Origin: Paraglomus brasilianum
Lineage: Eukaryota
DNA length: 64,000 nt
Assembly (NCBI GenBank): GCA_910592345.1
Contig: CAJVPI010000016.1
Coordinates: forward strand, 1-64,000
Direction: 5' to 3'
Part shown: one piece after another, positions 18,386-32,100 of the stretch
Layout of the letters: every line of letters starts with the position of its first letter
Numbering within the stretch: the stretch's first letter is position 1
Notes under the pieces: model-generated
Told to the model about the DNA's origin: nothing
Database searches by the model: none
Seen by the model: only the letters and a program-made list of their open reading frames with translations
Program-made: the position numbers and the translations under genes

Positions 18386-21300
18386 TCCGTGGATGAAGAT
18401 ATATTATTAGTGCACGTGGGTTTATTGATGGTATGTGTGTTTCTTGGAGAGGTCTTTGCTGTTATGATTTATTTACCGTAAAAGTGTCATTCGTGTTTAA
18501 GTGATTGCCCTTATTTATATTTGTCTTCTGATGACGAATGTCCGCTCCACGATTCGCAAAATTTAAGTTGCATCAAGGTTAGTGATAATCATAAGACAAT
18601 AATAATAATGCAGGTGTTGATCAAGGCTAAATCGAGACTTCCGAACAGCTAAGTATAAATTTCTTGGAGTAAATGACCAAAAAGAGTTCTTTATTAGCAA
18701 TTTGCCGGCCGAACTGTTCACATGTATTGAGCATTGACATGTATTACACAGCCACAACGATTGTGCTTGCGGGAATTTGTATCAAAAGTATTCCGATTTT
18801 TTTTCGCGACATTTATCCTGGTTAGCTCCAGAAAACAATGCAAGGCGGAACCCTTTTTAGCAATATTAATCCAATTATATTAATAGTAAGACAGAATGCT
18901 TAGAAGCGCAAGCTGAAGAACTGTGATAAGCTGAACAAAAAAACTTACATTATTGTAAACAATTCTACCAACAATCTTGGGCTTTGTCAGTTATACTCTA
19001 AAAAGCGCCCAGCCCAAACAATAATACTTCTCCCCCCGTTTCTAACAAACCGAAGAACTTTTTAATTCCGTTAAATAATTCTTTTTCTAACGTTAGACGA
19101 ATACATAAAATCTGGGAAAAGCCCGTTTTACACTGTCATTAAAAATTTAAATAGTCATCTGAATAATGGAGAATCGAAGAGTTAACGATTCCAGAATATA
19201 CAAACTATTTAAATATTAATATTAATATTATCATCGATTAGATTTGTCTATCTTGTAAAGAAAAATTGTATGGTATGATTAAGAGAAAATTAGTAGGGCG
19301 GGAATAAAATTTCTTAAGCTCGGAGTCAGTGTGATCCTATTTGTTGAAATCGGATATTCTGAATTAAAGATGTTATTCTTCTGCTAACTTGCAACAATTT
19401 TCGCTCCCTATTTCTTTTGACACTTTATTCTTATTAAATGCAGGGGTGTGCTGTGGAACTGGGTCTCAATTGGGGGAATTTCCTTTTTACGCTTTTCTGT
19501 ATAAGGATTATATAATTAGGTGCAAACGAAATTACCTTCAAGCTTCGGCTTCATTAGACCAAATGACAGTTTATAGCACCTTCTGACCGATAACACACGG
19601 GAATAACTATCCATAATCAGAACAGATGCCATTCGGAGTGGTTAGGATATTGTCTATACGCCTTGCCGAACACAATGCATCGAAAATATGAAGAGAAAGT
19701 ATTCATATGATGAATTGAGGAGCTAGTGAGGGTGTTCAGCAAACTGTATCGTTTCCAAACTCGCACGTGTCTATGAGGAATGGCCATGATAGCAAAACAA
19801 GACCTCCACGGAATATATTGATGACATGGAAAATTCTTGGCGCGAATATGGTTATATTAGAGTCATCCGGGATTCGTACTTTTTCACATATAGAATTGGT
19901 TTATAGTTCATATCCTGATTCTCTCCGCACAATTCAAACTTATGGGGCAGATCGTCTCCCGATTATAGCAAGACATTTTACGGAGTCATGGGTAACTTGA
20001 TGCAAATCACACTTCAAGACCTTCTTATTATTATGTGCTAATAGCCGATCCTTCCCAACGTGAAAGTGCGATAACCTTATGTTGTTTGGTTAAACCATTG
20101 TCGGACATTGATGACGTTCTTATTTCCCCGCCTTCTACCAATTTGTTATTATGTATATCATATATAACCCATTTGCTAAAAGTTAATTTCGCCAACTTTG
20201 TAAAAATTATTGGCTGATAATAATAACTCTTTCATGAGCCAAGTGCATGCGATAAAAGCATGACGTTATTGTACCATTTTTATTCTGACTCATCCTTCTT
20301 TTCACATAAAAAAGGTAATATCTATCCTAAACACTTGATGGAAGAGCATCCGTCCTCTGCGATATGGCAATACCACATATGTTCTAATACCACTTGAAGT
20401 ACGCTAAGTCGGGCGAGGTTTCATGGGTTTCTGGTAGTTGCCTTTTTAAAAGGGAGAGCTGGTCAGCTGATAGTTTTTTAACTATGAGAGCTGACTATAT
20501 TTTGATCTGAATAAGGCAGTAATAACTTTTCCGATACCGGCCATTTATCAAGGCTATATTTTTTATTTTGGTGACTGGCGTAAAAGGGATTTTCTTCTTC
20601 CGGTAATAGCCAATTTTATAAACCCGCTTAGCTTAACGTTTGATTGGTCGGTCATTTCGGGATTATTATTATTATTGCAAGTAATACAGATATATGAGGC
20701 AAAGATGTATTCATTAATTTGAGAGCCAAGTGTTAGGAAAAAAGAAGAAGCTCTTTTCATGGAATTCTACGATCAAAGAATAAGTTAAACATGCTCGAGC
20801 TTTTTATTGCTCGTAATACTATCAGGTGACATATTCGGCTTCGTAAATAACCGAATACCCGGACACGTGAGCATGCATGTTTAGCCTGTTAGTATTCGCG
20901 TGTGTATGTTTCAAGTTTATTTCAAGACAGTTAATGTGATAAATACCTCCGATCATCAATTTGATCGGAAGGTATACAATCTGACAGTTAAACGAGACTA
21001 AAACTTTACAATATTTGATCTTTAATAGTGTGATACGAATGCTTTGATACTTGACATCAGTTTCAAATGCTAAATTCAGACATAATTCATATTTCGACAG
21101 TTGAAGACATTTGCCTCTACACTAACGATGACAGAAACATCGAGCCGAGCAAGTTGTCATATGAATAGATTGTCATAATGAAAATGTATGTGGAGGGGAT
21201 AGTGTAAAGAATCATGATGCAATTTAACGATGTAATATGGTATAACCATATTTCTTACAGGTTTGTGAAATGCTAGTTTGTCTTCAGTATTTTAACTATG

Positions 21301-21878
21301 GAACTGTATGAAGTAATTATTTGGTATAGATACTTATTCAAAGTGAGACTTTTGTCTGTTTATAATGAAGAATAAGCGTGAAAAGTCGGTTTGCTTTAAG
21401 CTAAAAAAGGACCTCACCGAACATGTAGACATATGTTGGTAAGAGTGTTTATGAACCTTAATTTCAGACAGCAATGAGAAATTGATGAGTTTAAATAATT
21501 ATTTCTGGAAAACTTACACAACTCTATTTTGTGAATTTCCTTTTGAATAAATTACCTAATTCTGTTGTTTAATTAATATCGATTGGTTGGTATCGAGTCT
21601 ATGGCAAACATTGTGTAGACGATTATAAAGTAGACCAAGACTTGTCTGTAAAAAAATAGGTGTTTTTTAAGCTTGAGAATTACATAGCTTTTCACAGGCT
21701 AATCATTGGAATCGAATAAGGCGTTAAGACTGCCCATAGGTACTATGTAGGCCACAATAATTTAACATTTCACAATTCTACTTGATAATATGTGATGATT
21801 ATTACTGTTGACAATGTCATTCAGAAGTCGTTTATATTAGTATTAGCCCAGCAATTCCGATACCGACTAACTAATGCA

Positions 21879-21941
21879 TCCATATGAGATTACATGTTTC
21901 ATACGCGTAGGCTCCATATAAGATTGCATGTTTTATGTGTG
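21879..21941 (+). repeat. Tandem imperfect 29-bp direct repeats (34-bp period) at the inferred element left end
   Basis: TCCATATGAGATTACATGTTTCATACGCG vs TCCATATAAGATTGCATGTTTTATGTGTG (23/29 identical). Confidence 0.75.
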
Positions 21942-22094
21942 TTTTCGGTTCCGCCATTCAAATACCGACATTATTCCTCAAACTCTTTAACCATTGCAAT
22001 ATTTACTCATTTGAAAATCAAAATCGTAAACACATAATCTCTCCCCTCAATGCTAACACCGCCGCCGCCGCCGCCGCCAAAACCACCACCAAAA

Positions 22095-22378
22095 AGGGTT
22101 CAAACAAAAGGAGGTCCTCAACTCCCCAACTTACGGGACACGAATCGGTTCAGGGCTCAATTGGAAACGCAGGACCCTTTTGGAACGAATATACTCTAAA
22201 GGAGTCGAAGAAGTGGTGTTACCTGAAAAGACCGCTTTGGATCCGAACTTGTAGAGTGGATCTTTAAAAAAAATGGGACACGGCTCGTGGTTCTCAGTTC
22301 AGAAGTTTATGCCAATGGAGAGCTCGCAAAAGACCTACTTGCAATCGTCACAGTGTTTGTGGTGCGACATAATGGACC
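22095..22378 (+). pseudogene. tnpA: IS607-family serine recombinase (TnpA) remnant
   Basis: Across frameshifts reads RV..KQKEVL...GHE..IGSGLNWKRRTLLERIYSKGVEEVV(V)T*KDRFGSELVEWIFKKNGTRLVVLSSEVYANGELAKDLLAIVTVFVVRHNG. This matches the IS607 resolvase motifs DIGSGLN.KR, V...DRL.RFG.EL and EL..DLL.I.TVF.AR..G. Confidence 0.88.
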
Positions 22379-23406
22379 GCAAATCGCAGGAGAAGAGAAG
22401 CCGCCAAAGAGGTTCAAGAAGGAAGCGAAGAAACCTTCAGCAGGCAAGGTACCAGTACAACGTATTTGCATTTATACCAACCAGCAGGAGCGGCTGAAAC
22501 TCAGAGGATGGATGGGAACAGCACGATGGACATACAATCGGTGCCTTACCGCGGTCGAAAAAGAAAGTTTCAAATGAGAAAAGAAGGATCTACGCGCACT
22601 ATGTCTCAACGCCAAAAACTTCAATGATACCAAACTTAAATGGGTCCTTGAAACGCCCTACGACATTCGTGATGAAGCAATGAATGACTTGCTTAAAGGG
22701 TATTCTTCTCGTGGGGAATATGTATTTCTTCCTAAAATCAAGTCAGCAGAACCTCTTCAACTTCCAAATAAGCTTGAATATGATAGCCGCCTTGTTATGA
22801 ATCGACTTGGGGAATATTATCTTTGTATACTCAGACCACTTAAAATACGCTAAAAACCAAGGCCCTATATCTCAAAAGGTATTGATCTAATTTTTTTATT
22901 ATATTATATATCTATTAAATTAAAACCATATACAGTCAAACCTCGATATAGTGAAGTCTTGATACAGTGAATTTCGCGCTATAGTAAAGAATTCCTCTGA
23001 TCCAAAAACAGCATTAGTATAAACTTTACTATATTGAAAATTTTCGATACAGTGAATTTTCGATATAGTGAAGAAAAATGCTCGCCCTGTTGACTTCACT
23101 ATATCAAGGTTTGACTGTATTTAATAATTTAATAGGAGGAATCAGGAGTAATTTCTCTGGATCCAAGTGTACGTACATGGTCACATTATCACTTTCAACA
23201 GCATTTGATCCATAAGGCACGTGAGCATCCGTAGTAATTTGTACAGAAGAATACACAAGTAAAACTTGTGGATCCTGCGGTCATATAAACAGCTTGGTGG
23301 ATCTAAGGTGTTTTGCTGTCCTCAATGTAAACAAAACCTTGATAGAGATATTAATGGTGCCCGCAATATTTTTCTTCGATATCTTACAAAAAAGGAGTCA
23401 GCTTAG
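22175..23406 (+). pseudogene. Fanzor2 (eukaryotic TnpB-like RNA-guided nuclease) pseudogene with one intron (22879-23135)
   Basis: HTH-like RICIYTNQQERLKLRGWMGTARWTYNRCL; WVLETPYDIRDEAMNDL; YDSRLVMNRLGEYYLCI; NQGP; RuvC-I ISLDPSVRT; WSHYHFQQHLIHKA; TEEYTSKTCGSCG...FCCPQC (zinc finger); RuvC-III DRDINGARNIFLR; stop at 23404-23406. Contains internal stops, frameshifts and two large deletions. Confidence 0.92.
22933..23117. mobile_element. 185-bp Tc1/mariner (pogo-like) MITE inside the Fanzor intron
   Basis: 26-bp TIRs CAGTCAAACCTYGATATAGTGAAGTC (1 mismatch), TA target duplication at 22931-2 and 23118-9, internal GATAYAGTGAA repeats. Confidence 0.93.
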
Positions 23407-23482
23407 GCTGACGCGGGGGCCTATTCCCTGACAGGACTTGTTATTCCTAATTTATTAGTAATGATAAGTTTTAATGTAGGCG
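23397..23482 (+). ncRNA. Putative Fanzor omega-RNA scaffold (5' extent uncertain)
   Basis: Hairpins GTCAGC-TTAG-GCTGAC, GGGG-GCCTAT-TCCC and ACTTGTTATT..CTAA-TTTA-TTAG..AATGATAAGT. Loop GCCTA is complementary to TAGGC at 23477-23481 (pseudoknot). Lies at the 3' end of the Fanzor gene. Confidence 0.6.
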
Positions 23483-26206
23483 TTATGTTAGTTACCATAA
23501 TGAAGAAGTATTTATGTTATCATACAATTTCATGCATTTCATATGTTTATTTTTATACATAGTTAATACCTCCAGATTATAACAGTAGGATGAGAAATAA
23601 TATTAACGGAGTTATTGAAGTTTTCGGAAAAAATAAAATAAAGTAAAAACTTTATATGTTTTACTAATACAGCATCATGTCGCTGGCCAAGTTGTTAATT
23701 ATAGTAAAGATACTGTATGTCGTTAAAATCTAAATGTTATTGTTTGATTAAATGGCTTGTGGAACAAAATAATTTGGTATTTTTTGGATAGCTAATAAAG
23801 GTTACCAATTTTAAGATCAAAAAGTTGTGGAATATGATGACGAAAGGATGTGTTTAGTATTTGACGATTATGTAACAAGCTTGAAGATGGTCAATCGGCG
23901 AAATTAGCAAGAACAGCAAATGATAAATGACATAGTAATGTGGCGTTAAAGGCATTTGCATGCTTGCTGTGCTTCCGGATTCAGTTTCTTACGGTGTTTG
24001 TTTAGTATAGCCATAAGTCTTTGTGTTGATGATACACTCTCCTGAGATAAGTAACGGACCCCCCTTTTCTTTTAGTTTGTACAATAGAATCTGTAAAGTA
24101 AAACTAATATTTGATTGGCCATCTGTTATTGGCAATATACATTCTTCAATTCTACTTGCCATGCTCTTAACTAAATCCATATATTAATATGCAATTTTTG
24201 TAATTTTGGTTCATTCCTCCAGTAATAAGTAAAGCAGTTATTATTTTTTTGTAAATTTTTGAACTCTTTCGAGGCCGAAATTCCGACCGTGAATGTTCAA
24301 ATCTCGGATATGACGTAAAAATTCTGGGGTCCATCAGTGCATATTAATATAAAGAGATTAATTTACAAACTAGGCTTTAATAAACACAGTATGTCTATAT
24401 TTACTTAGAGACTTTCTCTGTGCAATTTTGGAATATCAATAACTCAGTCAGTCACCTTACGCGATCATGGAAATGATATATGCTGTAAGCACGACAACGC
24501 TCAAGGGAACCGAAAATTCATCCATAAAGTTCTTATCAATAAACAAGACATCTCTCGTTGCATGTGTTCAGCAGCAACATTATTATTCTTATTGTTACCC
24601 AAATCTCCATGTCCATGACTAGATGTTATGTAATGTATGTATCGACATATCATCGTCAACAACTTTACAATGTCTTTAATCAACTAGTGACTCTTAAATG
24701 ACATCTTCTTTGTTCCTTCGAAAGCTTTGTTTATATATTCAACCTTTAACGATCGCAATCATGTGATTAACTACAGCTTTCGGTTATGAACTAAACTTTT
24801 GCGGATTTATAATGGAACAGACATTCGCAATGATAATACATACAGTACTCTAGACGGAGCATATTTCTCTGCTTAAATATGTGACTGGGTTCTGTTCAAC
24901 ATTGTTAAGAGCTATCAATATACAAAGATCAGAGATGGCGAGTATTTGTAGCCTTTATAATAGACATCCTTTGCTTGTTCTCATCGCATGCATACCGCAT
25001 ATCCATACATGCACATGCTTGCTTAAACTCTTGTTGTCTCCTGTAAACTCCATACTGCATATGAACGGGCTTCATTTATCACGTGAGATATAGCCACGAG
25101 GCAGTAACAATGGCACACACGAAATCACTTAGTGGCGGCGAAATTTTTGGCACAAAAGTGCATATTAATATTGTTATTATTGTTGTTATTATCATTTGTT
25201 AATATTGTCCCTATTTTTATGTTAATTGTATAGTTTTCGTCATAAAGGCCTTTTTAATTCACGCGCATCGAATCCGTTGCTCAGGGACACTCACGATGCT
25301 CATTTTTGGGCTTTCAAAGGCGTTATTATTAATATATCAGTCGCCAAACGATATTTATCGTAAATATGTGGGCGCATGAAACATCTCCTGATCGTCTATC
25401 ATTTCAATCTTTTTTTCCCCCTATGATTACAAGCTTATCCAGTCTCATCCTCCAGTAAAAGCATTCTCTCCACCACAATTAGCTTTTTTAGTCTGTACGG
25501 CGAATGTGCAAATGCATGAGTCAGGTACCTCAATGACATATTTGATGTATGCATATATTGTGCAGCGAGGATGCCATAATCCTTATCGATACCTTTTTTC
25601 AAGAACCCTTTTACGATGGTTGATCAACATGATGCACATATCCAACGAAAATGTCGACTTGAACCTTTTGACCCTTGTCCAGCAAACTTTCATCTCAAAC
25701 AATCTTGGGAAATCCCTACCTTCTAAGGAAGTTTGTATCATTCACGCACGAGGCAAAAAAGAGTATCCTGCTTTACGCCCGTCCGCGATTGTCTCCTATC
25801 TAGCCCCTTTAAAAAACAGTTGTTGCCTTCCCTGGTCGTAAAGTTGCGATAGACTGGACACTTTTCACAGACGAACATACACCAAACAATAAGGAATTAC
25901 AACTGGATAAGCAAAATTTAAAAATAAACAAAGAATTTATTTGGAGAATAACAAATAGTTATCGAGACTTGCTTCCGGAGTGATTAGTTCCTTTCTCAAG
26001 AGGGACGCTTGGTGGTGTTCACATAAAGCGAGATAACGAAAAAGTCAAACTCAGTCGTCGTGAATAGGAGCACATAATATCGTGTAGCAAATTTATTGCA
26101 CTACAACACAAACACTCTGCACAAGAACACTTTTACCCGCATTACCTTCCCAGTTATAGACTTTATTCCCAAGTATTATTATAGACGAACACGCAAAATT
26201 CGAACA

Positions 26207-29103: not shown

Positions 29104-32100
29104 TCAAACAGCAACTGTTGGTGCTTTTGTGCTCTCGATATCTCTTTGCCTTCGCACCAAGTAATTGAGCTTGTCCATTACCTACAATAAAAGGCGAATT
29201 AATAAATATAGGCCACATAACCAGATAAAATATCATTGTTCATCTTGCTGTTAATTAACTACACGATTACACACATCAAATCCCCATAACTTACCTCTCC
29301 CAACTTCCTCTTCCTCTCTTGTAACTCTAAATGCTTCCTGATATATGGATTCTCCTTGGCAAACTGCAATATTTGCTTTCTATCCAAATCGTAAACCAAC
29401 TTATTATCCACCTCCCTCGGGAACTGGAAGAAAAATTCGGTCAACAATTCTACTTGAATAAACATCACAGCCGTGTAAGTTAATTTCTCAGCAACCATGT
29501 TTAAGAATGCCTCTGGACAGTATTGTTTGTTCTCTGGTGATTTGCACTGACGAGACTTCAGAGCAGCAAGCCGGTATTTTAGAATTATCGCCCGGTCGCG
29601 GAGAAATATGGCCTCGTGTGCTTTCTCGATTAGTTTGGGTGAAACATGCAAGCGGACCGTATCGTTGGATTCAACAATGTTGTTTGCTGATATTAGCTGT
29701 GGGGACGTAACGGTGGACGCGCTAGGTAAAGCATCAGGGTGGTCATCGGAAGAATCATCTTTGAGTCGTGCTTGACGACGAACTTCTTCCTTCTCTGCAT
29801 CAAGAACATGTTTAATGGCAGCTCGAAGTTTACGCTGACCAACGGTGGTTTTGAGATGTTGCAGCGCCTTATTGCAATAATCAATTTCCTTCTCGATTAA
29901 GCTTATTGATCTTTTAACCCCTTCGGCCCATTCTTGCTCTGTACATTCAACTTCATACTTGTATGGCTTTACGCAATTTTCTACTTGGTCCGCAGTGGTA
30001 TGAAACTTATTCCTCAATATCTCGTTGGTGAAATTCAGTATTTTTCGACTTGTTTCCGGATGATTGTTCAATGGCTCCATGCTTGCCAGACGTTCCATAT
30101 TCGCTAGTAACACGTCGACTACTAACTGTGTACTTGTTCGACCGATACCGCTTTTTGTCAATGCAGCAGAACACATATCGAGCTTATATTGCCAGTATAG
30201 ATCATCGCGTGACGATTTGGCTAAATCGGTAATTCTTTTGTCGGTCCAATAGAGTTCGGCACAAAGATCTAAAACACGCTGTTCGAGCATTGTACGAACT
30301 TCGTGTCGCACTTGCGGTTTTCCAAAAGAATGTGCAAAGTCTTTGAAATTGTGTTTTATACTGTCGATGGTTTCGGCAACATACGATTCGGCAGTTATGC
30401 GTCTTTAAAGCCAAAGAGTTAAATGAGTATGTGAGATAATATTAACAGACAATTTTCTGATCAATCTTATTTCAACTGTGATGACTATCACTCTGTTCAA
30501 TAACCCCGTAATATGATCAACTCACAAATGTTAGTTCAAATAAAATGACAAACCTATCATTATACTGCACTTTAAATTGATACTTCGCCTCTTCCAATTC
30601 CGCTTGAACGGCGCCAACGATCGAGAACAATGACTTTGCCATGTTCTCTTCTAGAACTTCCATCAGCTTTCTTCTCAGCGTTCCGACACCAACTTGTATC
30701 CCTCTCTGACTATATACATAATTACTTCTAAAAAAACTCTCTTCGTGACGAACTAACGCGGAAGTAATGTTCTTTTGCACGTTAAGATTCTCGGGTGGCT
30801 TGCATACAACGCCGATATATCCGAGGTGAAGGGGATAATCACTATTACGAAGAATTGTTGCACCGACTTCCGGTTCTACCAAATCCATTTTTGTAATCAC
30901 TCCTATTGTTCGGAGACCCAACGGATCAACTTTGCGACTTGCTTTCAGTGCCTCAGAATTAGCCAAGTCTACATCAGCCGCGCAAACGGCTAAAATAATA
31001 TTTGGCTCTTTGATGTACTGTTCACATAGTTCAAAAATCTTCTCCTTCAGCGTCTCCGGTTGGTTCTTGTTATTCACTTGTATATATCCGGGTAAGTCAA
31101 TTAGAGTTAGATCAGGTACATTGGGAGAATAGATCCGAAGTTCAATTGGTTTGTTGGAGACGCATTCCGATTCGGGTACAGCAAGATTCATATCACGAAG
31201 CGTTTGTTGGATGTGTTTAAAGTCATGGATTTTGCCGAGGCCAAGTTGAGGAAATTCTCCGTATTCTTCTTTGGATTTTGGGGTGTGGATCAAAGTCAGC
31301 TCTATTGGACGGCGAGTCACCATATTTGAGCCCCTATTTAATTGAAGAGATTAAAGACGTCATATAAATTATGAGAAAACAAGACGTAACGATGTGATAG
31401 TGATAGGAAAAATAGTGCATAATAATTGACTAATCAACGACCATTCCCCAACGCAATATGATCACACATTTGTCTGCGGCTTTTCAGAATGCCTTCCGTC
31501 ATTACGTACTTGGGCAAGAACTCGTGACCAACAATGGCTTCCAGTACCGAAGTTTTCCCCGAACTTTGACTGCCTATAACCACAATACTAGGCAATCGTA
31601 GTGCCTCGTTATGGTCAATACTCATCAATATATTTCTCACTTCAATTAACTTCTTCGTCAAAATCATAAACTGGTCTTCCTGTACATTCGTTGTTACGTT
31701 CACTTTTGCCTCATTGTTATCCTCTTCTTCGTCTTTTTCACCAGAGACGAACAGGTTCGTTGCTGTTGCCACAGCAACGGCTGCTCCTACAGCCGGTGAA
31801 GAATTATTAGAATCTGAGTCATCATCCTTTTTAATGAAGCGTGGTCGGTCTGATTCGAGTGAATGTTGATTAGAGGATTTTGTAAAAAGGGATTTCAAGG
31901 TGGATGGGATGCCAACGTCGATTGTAGGAAGATCTAAGGCAATGCCTTGACCGAGTGAGGTTACAAAGTCTTTGGCGTCAATAAATATAGATGAGACCCA
32001 TTCATGTGACTTGCTGGCCATATCTTTTTTGAAATGGGAAGAAATTGATATTAAAAAAAAAAGGCTTTCATATGTTATTCATTATTCACACATATCTCGT

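What the first reader, a model, noticed from the sequence alone, without database searches (positions are those of the whole stretch)
21860..23482. IS607-type Fanzor2 transposon (serine recombinase + RNA-guided nuclease) resident in a fungal chromosome
Seen: frameshifted remnants of a serine recombinase directly followed by a TnpB-like gene with RuvC-I (LDPSVRT), EEYTSKTC, a CxxC..CxxC finger and RuvC-III (DRDINGARNI), amid ordinary spliced fungal genes. Established: IS607 TnpA-linked Fanzor2 elements are best known from giant viruses and some protists/animals, while well-studied fungal Fanzors are mostly Fanzor1. Inference: a fungal Fanzor2/IS607 family of probable viral or bacterial origin. 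This copy is dead, but intact siblings could supply a new compact RNA-guided nuclease.
Basis: partly seen in the sequence, partly recalled or inferred. Interest (0 to 1): 0.88.

Follow-up and report, generated by a model that had tools for sequence, protein, structure and literature searches.

The report
Dead intron-bearing fungal Fanzor2 transposon
This is a broken copy of a bacterial-style jumping gene (IS607 with a Fanzor2 nuclease) in a mycorrhizal fungus; the family is already catalogued, but its two genes overlap almost completely and it carries likely spliceosomal introns, one of which is predicted to serve both genes at once.

Summary
Window 22144-23482 is a dead IS607/Fanzor2 element in an arbuscular mycorrhizal fungus (a neighbouring Mgm1 exon is 100% identical to a Paraglomus brasilianum protein). 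Corrections: (1) only the C-terminal part of TnpA survives, without the HTH or catalytic serine; (2) TnpA overlaps the Fanzor rather than preceding it; (3) 'LDPS' is a mutated DPG, followed by a 112-codon deletion; (4) the AT-rich middle is a predicted GT-AG intron holding a 185-bp TA-flanked MITE. The Fanzor2 call is supported: the closest structure is mimivirus Fanzor2, and Saito 2023's table labels close Rhizophagus, Ambispora and Diversispora homologues FZ2. So fungal Fanzor2/IS607 is not new, and no viral or bacterial donor is shown. Not found in the papers searched: the nuclease frame runs open in +1 across nearly all of TnpA throughout this clade (53 stops seen, about 376 expected, 29 loci). 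In a soil sibling with both frames open (L001), removing one 73-nt intron opens both frames together. Splicing, ends, TAM and activity are inferred, not tested.

The parts
21857..21859 (+). CCG; candidate left junction (crossover CG and possible TAM). Inferred only
   Evidence: Sequence. L002 also has CCG where GC jumps from 0.13 to 0.48. No GC step in the window and no empty site seen.
21860..22143 (+). 5' region with short repeats (TACCGAC x2, GTAGGC) and a GCC run; replaces the TnpA HTH and catalytic half; multi-copy; left end not fixed
   Evidence: Not alignable to L001-L003 beyond chance. Depth well above the flanks and variant contigs.
22144..22624 (+). Frameshifted C-terminal remnant of IS607 TnpA serine recombinase (IGSGLNWKRR..DRFGSELVEWIF..LAKDLLAIVTVFV), wholly overlapping the Fanzor N-terminal frame
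   Evidence: NCBIfam transpos_IS607 E 1.3e-8; tblastn; 56-70% identity to Rhizophagus clarus, Diversispora and Ambispora IS607 proteins
22148..22878 (+). Fanzor2 5' exon remnant: overprinted N-terminal extension (PFWN, SWFS), HTH/REC/WED; three or more frameshifts, a TGA at 22575 and a 96-99-nt in-frame deletion near 22705
22879..23135 (+). Predicted spliceosomal intron (GT..AG, phase 0, QK|E); about 70 nt without the MITE
   Evidence: Same site is an 86-nt, 95% AT GT-AG segment in L002/L003 and is absent in L001. Metagenome ORFs P0002-P0007 read into it. NCBI gene models of R. clarus join QK|E. No RNA evidence.
22933..23117 (.). 185-bp MITE: 26-bp TIRs (25/26 match), TA duplication (22931-32, 23118-19), internal repeats; Tc1/mariner-pogo-like (label recalled)
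   Evidence: sibling contigs in all 4 runs laid skip it (joint 22926->23118)
23136..23406 (+). Fanzor2 3' exon remnant: RuvC-I mutated DPG->DPS, 336-nt deletion (rest of RuvC-I, bridge helix region), E six residues before the zinc finger, ZnF, RuvC-III; two frameshifts
23396..23482 (+). Predicted omega-RNA scaffold remnant and right end (...TGTAGGCG): three hairpins; the loop of the second is complementary to the terminal GUAGG(C), a predicted pseudoknot
   Evidence: Fold z -2.9, 1 of 200 shuffles as good; L001 z -2.4, 5 of 200. Similarity to L001 stops at this end.

Best explanation
This is an inactivated copy of an IS607-family (IS607EU) DNA transposon of arbuscular mycorrhizal fungi, carrying a broken serine-transposase gene overlapped in the +1 frame by a broken Fanzor2 nuclease gene, a likely spliceosomal intron, and a later MITE insertion. 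Shown: the anatomy, the lesions, the overlap, and relatives with open frames. Inferred from work on bacterial IS607 and tested Fanzor2s: in intact copies TnpA excises and inserts the element by recombination at a dinucleotide, with no TIR or TSD. The Fanzor binds an omega-RNA made from the right end plus about 15 flanking bases, cuts the empty donor site beside a short G/C-rich TAM (possibly CCG), and repair from a sister or other nucleus restores the element. One spliced pol II transcript likely encodes both proteins: TnpA from an upstream start that is unresolved (a conserved CTG in Kozak context, or a small upstream exon) and Fanzor from the next AUG in +1. This copy then decayed by microhomology-type deletions, point changes and the MITE.
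For: Profile and tblastn hits. 77.6% DNA identity (822/1059 aligned sites) to spliced L001. A relative's (P0140) best PDB sequence hit is ApmFz2 9b0l at E 2e-25. Its model (pLDDT 83) matches 9b0l first (E 2e-20, TM 0.61), and Fanzor1 8gkh/9cey only at E ~1e-5 to 4e-6, TM 0.37. DPG is invariant in 48 relatives. The tree puts the relic with L001/P0140/Cetraspora (SH-aLRT 97) inside the DPG clade. Published FZ2 labels sit on P0013- and P0244-identical entries and on an R. clarus protein with the QK|E junction. Removing one 73-nt intron from L001 opens a 288-codon TnpA frame and a 617-codon Fanzor frame together; 0 of 5000 synonymous recodings of that TnpA are stop-free in +1.
Against: No RNA reads, so splicing rests on sequence and automatic gene models. 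No empty site was seen, so the ends, dinucleotide and TAM are unproven. No ATG for TnpA was found in L001 or L002, so L001 may not be autonomous. The tree is a quick one with no Fanzor1 and no ApmFz2 row. Nothing was assayed. Copy number in the host is unknown (no genome).
Confidence: 0.88

Rival explanations
1. The copy belongs to a non-autonomous, Fanzor-only lineage. TnpA lost its active site before the family spread, and the 'recombinase remnant' persists only because it is the other frame of the Fanzor's N-terminal domain; autonomous partners would move it in trans.
For: The HTH and YARVSS motif are absent. At least one other contig in run X1 shares the odd 5' segment (joint 22046->22099 and in-frame insertions at 22135/22142). 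L002/L003 and R. clarus gene models share an in-frame deletion through the TnpA serine motif while keeping the Fanzor frame.
Against: Window-specific changes in the overlap fall most at TnpA third positions (4/14/9 by Fanzor position 1/2/3), so TnpA was constrained along much of this branch. P0284, which has the window's intron pattern, keeps the full N-terminal frame. This rival is compatible with the main explanation and only changes the history.
Confidence: 0.35
2. The AT-rich GT-AG segments are inactivating insertions and not spliced introns.
For: No RNA support was obtained; gene models are predictions; the presence pattern is patchy among subfamilies.
Against: Three independent sites, each 66-86 nt, 80-95% AT and bounded GT..AG, whose exact removal restores the frame seen in uninterrupted relatives. 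For intron 1 it restores two frames at once. Sequence downstream of the segments stays under purifying selection (third-position bias 22 vs 5 and 3 on the L001 branch, 12 vs 6 and 1 on the L002/3 branch).
Confidence: 0.07
3. The segment is a bacterial, endosymbiont or viral contaminant, or an assembly chimera.
For: Run X1 may be the window's own source; no single contig spans the element.
Against: Contigs bridge both flanks. The element carries an intron and a eukaryotic MITE. Homologues are on long contigs of several Glomeromycota assemblies. The best plasmid match is only 35% identical; no IMG/VR stretch matched P0140's patterns and the best profile-found viral locus is 45%.
Confidence: 0.03

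Closest known systems
FZ2-branch proteins of Glomeromycota in Saito et al. 2023 Supplementary Table (PMC10432273) and Yoon et al. 2023 Tables S2/S5 (PMC10711439): R. clarus GET01997.1 and GES91202.1, Ambispora gerdemannii CAG8576195.1 and CAG8682803.1, Diversispora RHZ81291.1
   Same: Same family: same motifs, same QK|E and ER|TD junctions in the gene models, TnpA linkage
   Different: Those rows are raw protein listings; this copy is dead, lacks intron 1 and holds a MITE. The passages read do not describe the introns, the overlap or the ends.
ApmFz2 / ApmFNuc (mimivirus IS607 Fanzor2; PDB 9b0l; PMC10530073, PMC11832414)
   Same: IS607 TnpA linkage, DPG and shifted glutamate, N-terminal extension, best sequence and fold match
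   Different: About 24% identity; viral and intronless; TAM G-rich (here unknown, CCG suspected)
Cyanobacterial pro-Fanzor IS607 (Nostoc PCC 7120 plasmid, L164; ISArma1 type)
   Same: DPG/Ealt nuclease, adjacent TnpA, +1 frame nearly stop-free over TnpA with PYWN and SWFS motifs
   Different: 35% identity; prokaryotic; no introns; outside the 36-row set holding the relic
IS607-like sequences of yeasts, Ustilago, Acanthamoeba, Ectocarpus, oomycetes (PMC3673617, PMC3627910, PMC2715888); 'IS607EU' of PMC13565253
   Same: Eukaryotic nuclear IS607 with serine recombinase, including fungi
   Different: Glomeromycota are not among the taxa named in the passages read; no spliceosomal introns are mentioned there
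Fanzor1 (SpuFz1, PDB 8gkh)
   Same: RuvC fingerprint (DPG, Ealt), fungal host
   Different: No sequence hit at E 10, TM 0.37; Fanzor1s were not found in IS607 elements

Membership tests
Fanzor (1 or 2) | RuvC-I DPG motif | tested here: met
   Invariant D237 P238 G239 in 48 of 48 relatives; DPG in L001-L003. This copy has decayed to DPS.
Fanzor (1 or 2) | Catalytic E six residues before the CxxC zinc finger (Ealt), then RuvC-III D | tested here: met
   EEYTSKTC..C and DRD in the window; E381 and D416 invariant; definition from PMC10711439
Fanzor2 | TnpB-like architecture with HTH_OrfB_IS605; closer to ApmFz2/TnpB than to Fanzor1 | tested here: met
Fanzor2 | Phylogenetic placement in the Fz2 branch | tested here: inconclusive
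   Own tree lacks Fanzor1 references; it places the relic among IS607-linked DPG nucleases. A published tree table labels close homologues FZ2.
Fanzor2 | Right-end omega-RNA with pseudoknot | tested here: inconclusive
   Hairpins and loop-to-3'-end complementarity predicted in 2 of 2 sequences folded; expression not tested
Fanzor2 | RNA-guided, TAM-dependent DNA cleavage | not testable with these tools
   Needs an assay; this copy cannot be active (RuvC deletion)
IS607 / IS607EU | MerR-HTH + serine recombinase TnpA upstream of or overlapping the nuclease | tested here: met
   Family level: P0010 172 bits and P0013 132 bits against a cut-off of 110; L001 has HTH + YARVSS. This copy keeps only the C-terminal part.
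IS607 / IS607EU | No TIRs and no TSD | tested here: inconclusive
   No inverted repeat pairs the two ends among the 25 of 26 pairs shown, but the left end is not fixed and no empty site was seen
IS607 / IS607EU | Insertion at a GG dinucleotide | tested here: inconclusive
   The right end reads GGCG|T in 2 of 2 loci; CG is suspected instead; NlovFz2 has a CCG TAM
Fanzor1 | Large divergent protein in a TIR/Helitron/Crypton host transposon | tested here: not met
   IS607 TnpA linkage; no SpuFz1 sequence hit; low fold score

The most novel reading that the evidence does not exclude
The Fanzor2-specific N-terminal domain (NLS, RuvC-R, thumb) was born by overprinting the +1 frame of the IS607 transposase gene, already in cyanobacterial pro-Fanzors. 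In mycorrhizal fungi the element has naturalised into a single spliced, dual-coding transcript. One spliceosomal intron serves both frames, further introns come and go between subfamilies, and the transposase may use a CUG start with leaky scanning to the nuclease AUG. This would be a bacterial IS solving operon-style co-expression in a nucleus, with naturally intact ~590-aa nucleases (L001 type) ready to test.
Probability: 0.5. Interest if true: 0.62.

Novelty: new variant of a known kind. Interest (0 to 1): 0.4.

Why it matters
The copy itself is a fossil of a family already in published FZ2 tables. The anatomy of the family matters more. If the Fanzor2 N-terminal domain is an overprint of TnpA, that explains where this structurally resolved domain came from and how a two-gene bacterial IS can be expressed from one eukaryotic mRNA. 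An intron shared by two overlapping frames in a serine transposase points to long residence and splicing-dependent activity of IS607 in AM fungi, with testable intron gain and loss. In practice, ORF callers truncate these nucleases (420-457 aa instead of about 590), which may matter for anyone testing them as editors.

Tried and rejected
No host genome was available, so no copy census, consensus or empty-site search was possible. Rfam: 0 hits in the window. No second copy of the element or the MITE in the window. No filled/empty joint among the 15 of 19 joints shown; flank cover in the soil runs was too thin for this to mean anything. P0140 peptide patterns matched no viral contig. The metagenome scan stopped after 20 of 64 parts and gave 4 loci; the viral scan covered 46 of 64 parts and the genome scan 8 of 64. 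The representatives search never ran, so no Fanzor1 rows were obtained; the careful tree did not finish and no one-clade test was run, so no donor is claimed. Aligning 21860-22143 to the relatives' 5' parts gave chance scores. A long-term Fanzor-only history was tested by codon position and not supported. The two canonical IS607 controls also had fewer +1 stops than the null (3 vs 6.8; 4 vs 10.0), so the null may overstate the expected count somewhat. Earlier-findings look-ups returned nothing.

Full report
Host and setting. The window is fungal chromosome (BTB, WW, armadillo and PHD genes). The Mgm1 exon at 29262-30401 is 100% identical over 97% of its length to a protein annotated Paraglomus brasilianum; the next hits are other Glomeromycota at 73-80% (lineage). 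No whole genome was available. Error-free contigs of run X1 cover 20092-21933 and 23437-24057 and so tie both flanks to the element; X1 may be the window's source. In three soil metagenomes depth over the element is roughly 13-155 against 0-5 in most flank bins, which points to a repeated family but gives no copy number.

Observation. Of 7 pieces scanned in Pfam, one hits HTH_OrfB_IS605 (E 3e-5) and one the TnpB zinc-finger model (E 4e-4, below cut-off). Of 4 pieces scanned in NCBIfam, two hit transpos_IS607 (E 1.3e-8; E 0.064). The first homologue search returned 18 proteins, among them IS607 transposases of Rhizophagus clarus, Diversispora and Ambispora. The second returned 117 longer nucleases.

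Anatomy of this copy. A metagenome scan (20 of 64 parts) gave 4 loci; L001-L003 are family members. Against spliced L001 the window is 77.6% identical. TnpA homology starts at about 22144; the HTH and catalytic motif are missing, and 21860-22143 aligns no better than shuffles. The nuclease has frameshifts near 22217, 22387, 22849, 23232 and 23284, a TGA at 22575, a 96-99-nt deletion near 22705, DPG changed to DPS, and a 336-nt deletion right after it. It cannot be active. 22879-23135 is bounded GT..AG at the site where L002/L003 have an 86-nt, 95% AT segment and L001 has none. Inside it lies a 185-bp MITE with 26-bp TIRs and a TA duplication, which sibling contigs lack in all 4 runs laid. Similarity to L001 ends at TGTAGGCG (23482). 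The last ~90-135 nt fold better than shuffles in both sequences (z -2.9, -2.4), and a hairpin loop is complementary to the terminal GUAGG, as in the pseudoknot described for IS607 reRNA. CCG precedes 21860, and CCG also marks a GC step in L002; NlovFz2 has a CCG TAM. The left end and TAM remain guesses.

Family assignment. In 48 full-length relatives DPG, the shifted E, the zinc-finger cysteines and RuvC-III D are invariant, matching the Fanzor fingerprint of Yoon et al.. The best solved relative by sequence and by fold is mimivirus Fanzor2; SpuFz1 gives no sequence hit and TM 0.37. A quick tree had 84 rows: the relic, L001, 32 proteins (31 of 117 plus P0257) and 50 of 153 locus ORFs, with no Fanzor1. 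It puts the relic with L001, P0140, P0257, Cetraspora and two metagenome rows (SH-aLRT 97), inside a 36-row set (97) with Lipomyces, Ectocarpus, a EukProt protist and three viral-contig rows; the Nostoc pro-Fanzor lies outside that set. No donor is inferred.

What is already known. [quoted passage not shown] Yoon 2023 (parts 1-4 of 7, supplement text and rows) lists these genera and one P. brasilianum protein. Bao & Jurka 2013, Rolland 2009 and Gilbert & Cordaux 2013 (passages) report Fanzor2 or IS607 sequences in yeasts and Ustilago. A 2026 review (passages) names the group IS607EU. Jiang 2023 (passages) reports intron gain by Fanzors in general. So a fungal IS607/Fanzor2 is not new.

What I did not find described. 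(a) Overprinting. Of 153 loci with a nuclease ORF, 42 have TnpA beside it; the nuclease is in +1 of TnpA in 38 of 42, and open over at least 400 nt of it in 25 of 42, redundant loci included. In 29 non-redundant clade loci (of 31; two canonical IS607s set aside as controls) the +1 frame over TnpA has 53 stops against 375.5 expected from synonymous recoding, and the +2 frame 507 against 595; 25 of 29 fall below the 1% level. The two controls were also under expectation (3 vs 6.8; 4 vs 10.0). The +1 frame keeps PFWN, WLP, TDC and SWF motifs from AM fungi to viral contigs and Nostoc. The stretch aligning to the ApmFz2 thumb region (domain limits from PMC11832414 passages) is encoded over the TnpA C-terminal helix. 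That IS607 ORFs 'often overlap' is known. A whole-gene overprint as the source of the Fanzor2 N-terminal domain was not found in searches or in the passages read. (b) Introns. Removing one 73-nt GT-AG segment from L001 opens both a 288-codon TnpA frame and a 617-codon nuclease frame. L002/L003 have this intron and two more; the window and P0284 lack it but have the second; P0257 has the first only; P0279 has both. NCBI models of R. clarus and Ambispora join at the same junctions, but these are predictions and no RNA was examined. Searches found no paper describing IS607 or Fanzor in AM fungi, or spliceosomal introns in IS607 (listings seen; of the and 42 hits only two were read, in passages). 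Subscription papers, Repbase entries and unread figures or supplements (one scanned file) could hold this. (c) L001 and L002 have no ATG at the TnpA start but share a CTG with A at -3 and G at +4, and the first downstream ATG is the nuclease's. A CUG start and a small upstream exon are both open.

Mechanism. Shown: anatomy, decay, overlap, open-frame relatives. Inferred from IS607 and tested Fanzor2s: scarless excision and insertion by TnpA, and guided cutting of the empty site by Fanzor with repair restoring the element. Inferred here: one spliced, dual-coding transcript.

Verdict. A real, dead member of a catalogued family. The dual-frame, intron-bearing architecture of the family is the part worth following up.

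Noticed in passing
L001:421-2321: Soil contig with both frames open after removal of one intron: ~592-aa Fanzor2 with DPG, Ealt, zinc finger and right end; a natural candidate for assay. TnpA has no ATG, only a conserved CTG.
   Followed up: partly
L002:770-800 and L003 equivalent: Shared in-frame deletion through the TnpA catalytic-serine motif with the Fanzor frame kept, also seen in R. clarus gene models: a non-autonomous subfamily.
   Followed up: partly
L164:936-2712 (Nostoc PCC 7120 plasmid): Cyanobacterial pro-Fanzor frame is open for 578 codons over an unlisted, broken TnpA; the annotation starts it ~190 codons later.
   Followed up: partly
window:20980-21316: A second dispersed repeat just upstream: depth 32-62 in soil runs against ~3 in flanks, loose ends at 21316; no clear ORF in six frames.
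   Followed up: partly
window:21879-21970: Short tandem units that vary in number among sibling contigs and share GTAGGC with the element's right end; possibly TnpA-binding left-end repeats or another repeat family.
   Followed up: partly
window:22933-23117: MITE family with four internal repeats near the TIRs; loose ends at 22930 show other insertions in the host and in soil runs.
   Followed up: partly
P0155/P0184/P0200 (Lipomyces): Multi-copy Fanzor2 in Lipomyces keeps the PFW..LWLP N-terminal motif in a short N-terminus; whether TnpA is still beside it was not checked.
   Followed up: no
P0271: A fragment of this intron-bearing fungal family is annotated in an archaeal MAG (Nitrosopumilaceae), probably a binning contaminant.
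   Followed up: no
P0235 (Cetraspora pellucida): Gene model fuses a family-B DNA polymerase to an IS607 TnpA/Fanzor: the element may sit in a Polinton- or virus-like insert.
   Followed up: no
window:25141-25407: Depth spike (90) in run X5 only; not examined.
   Followed up: no
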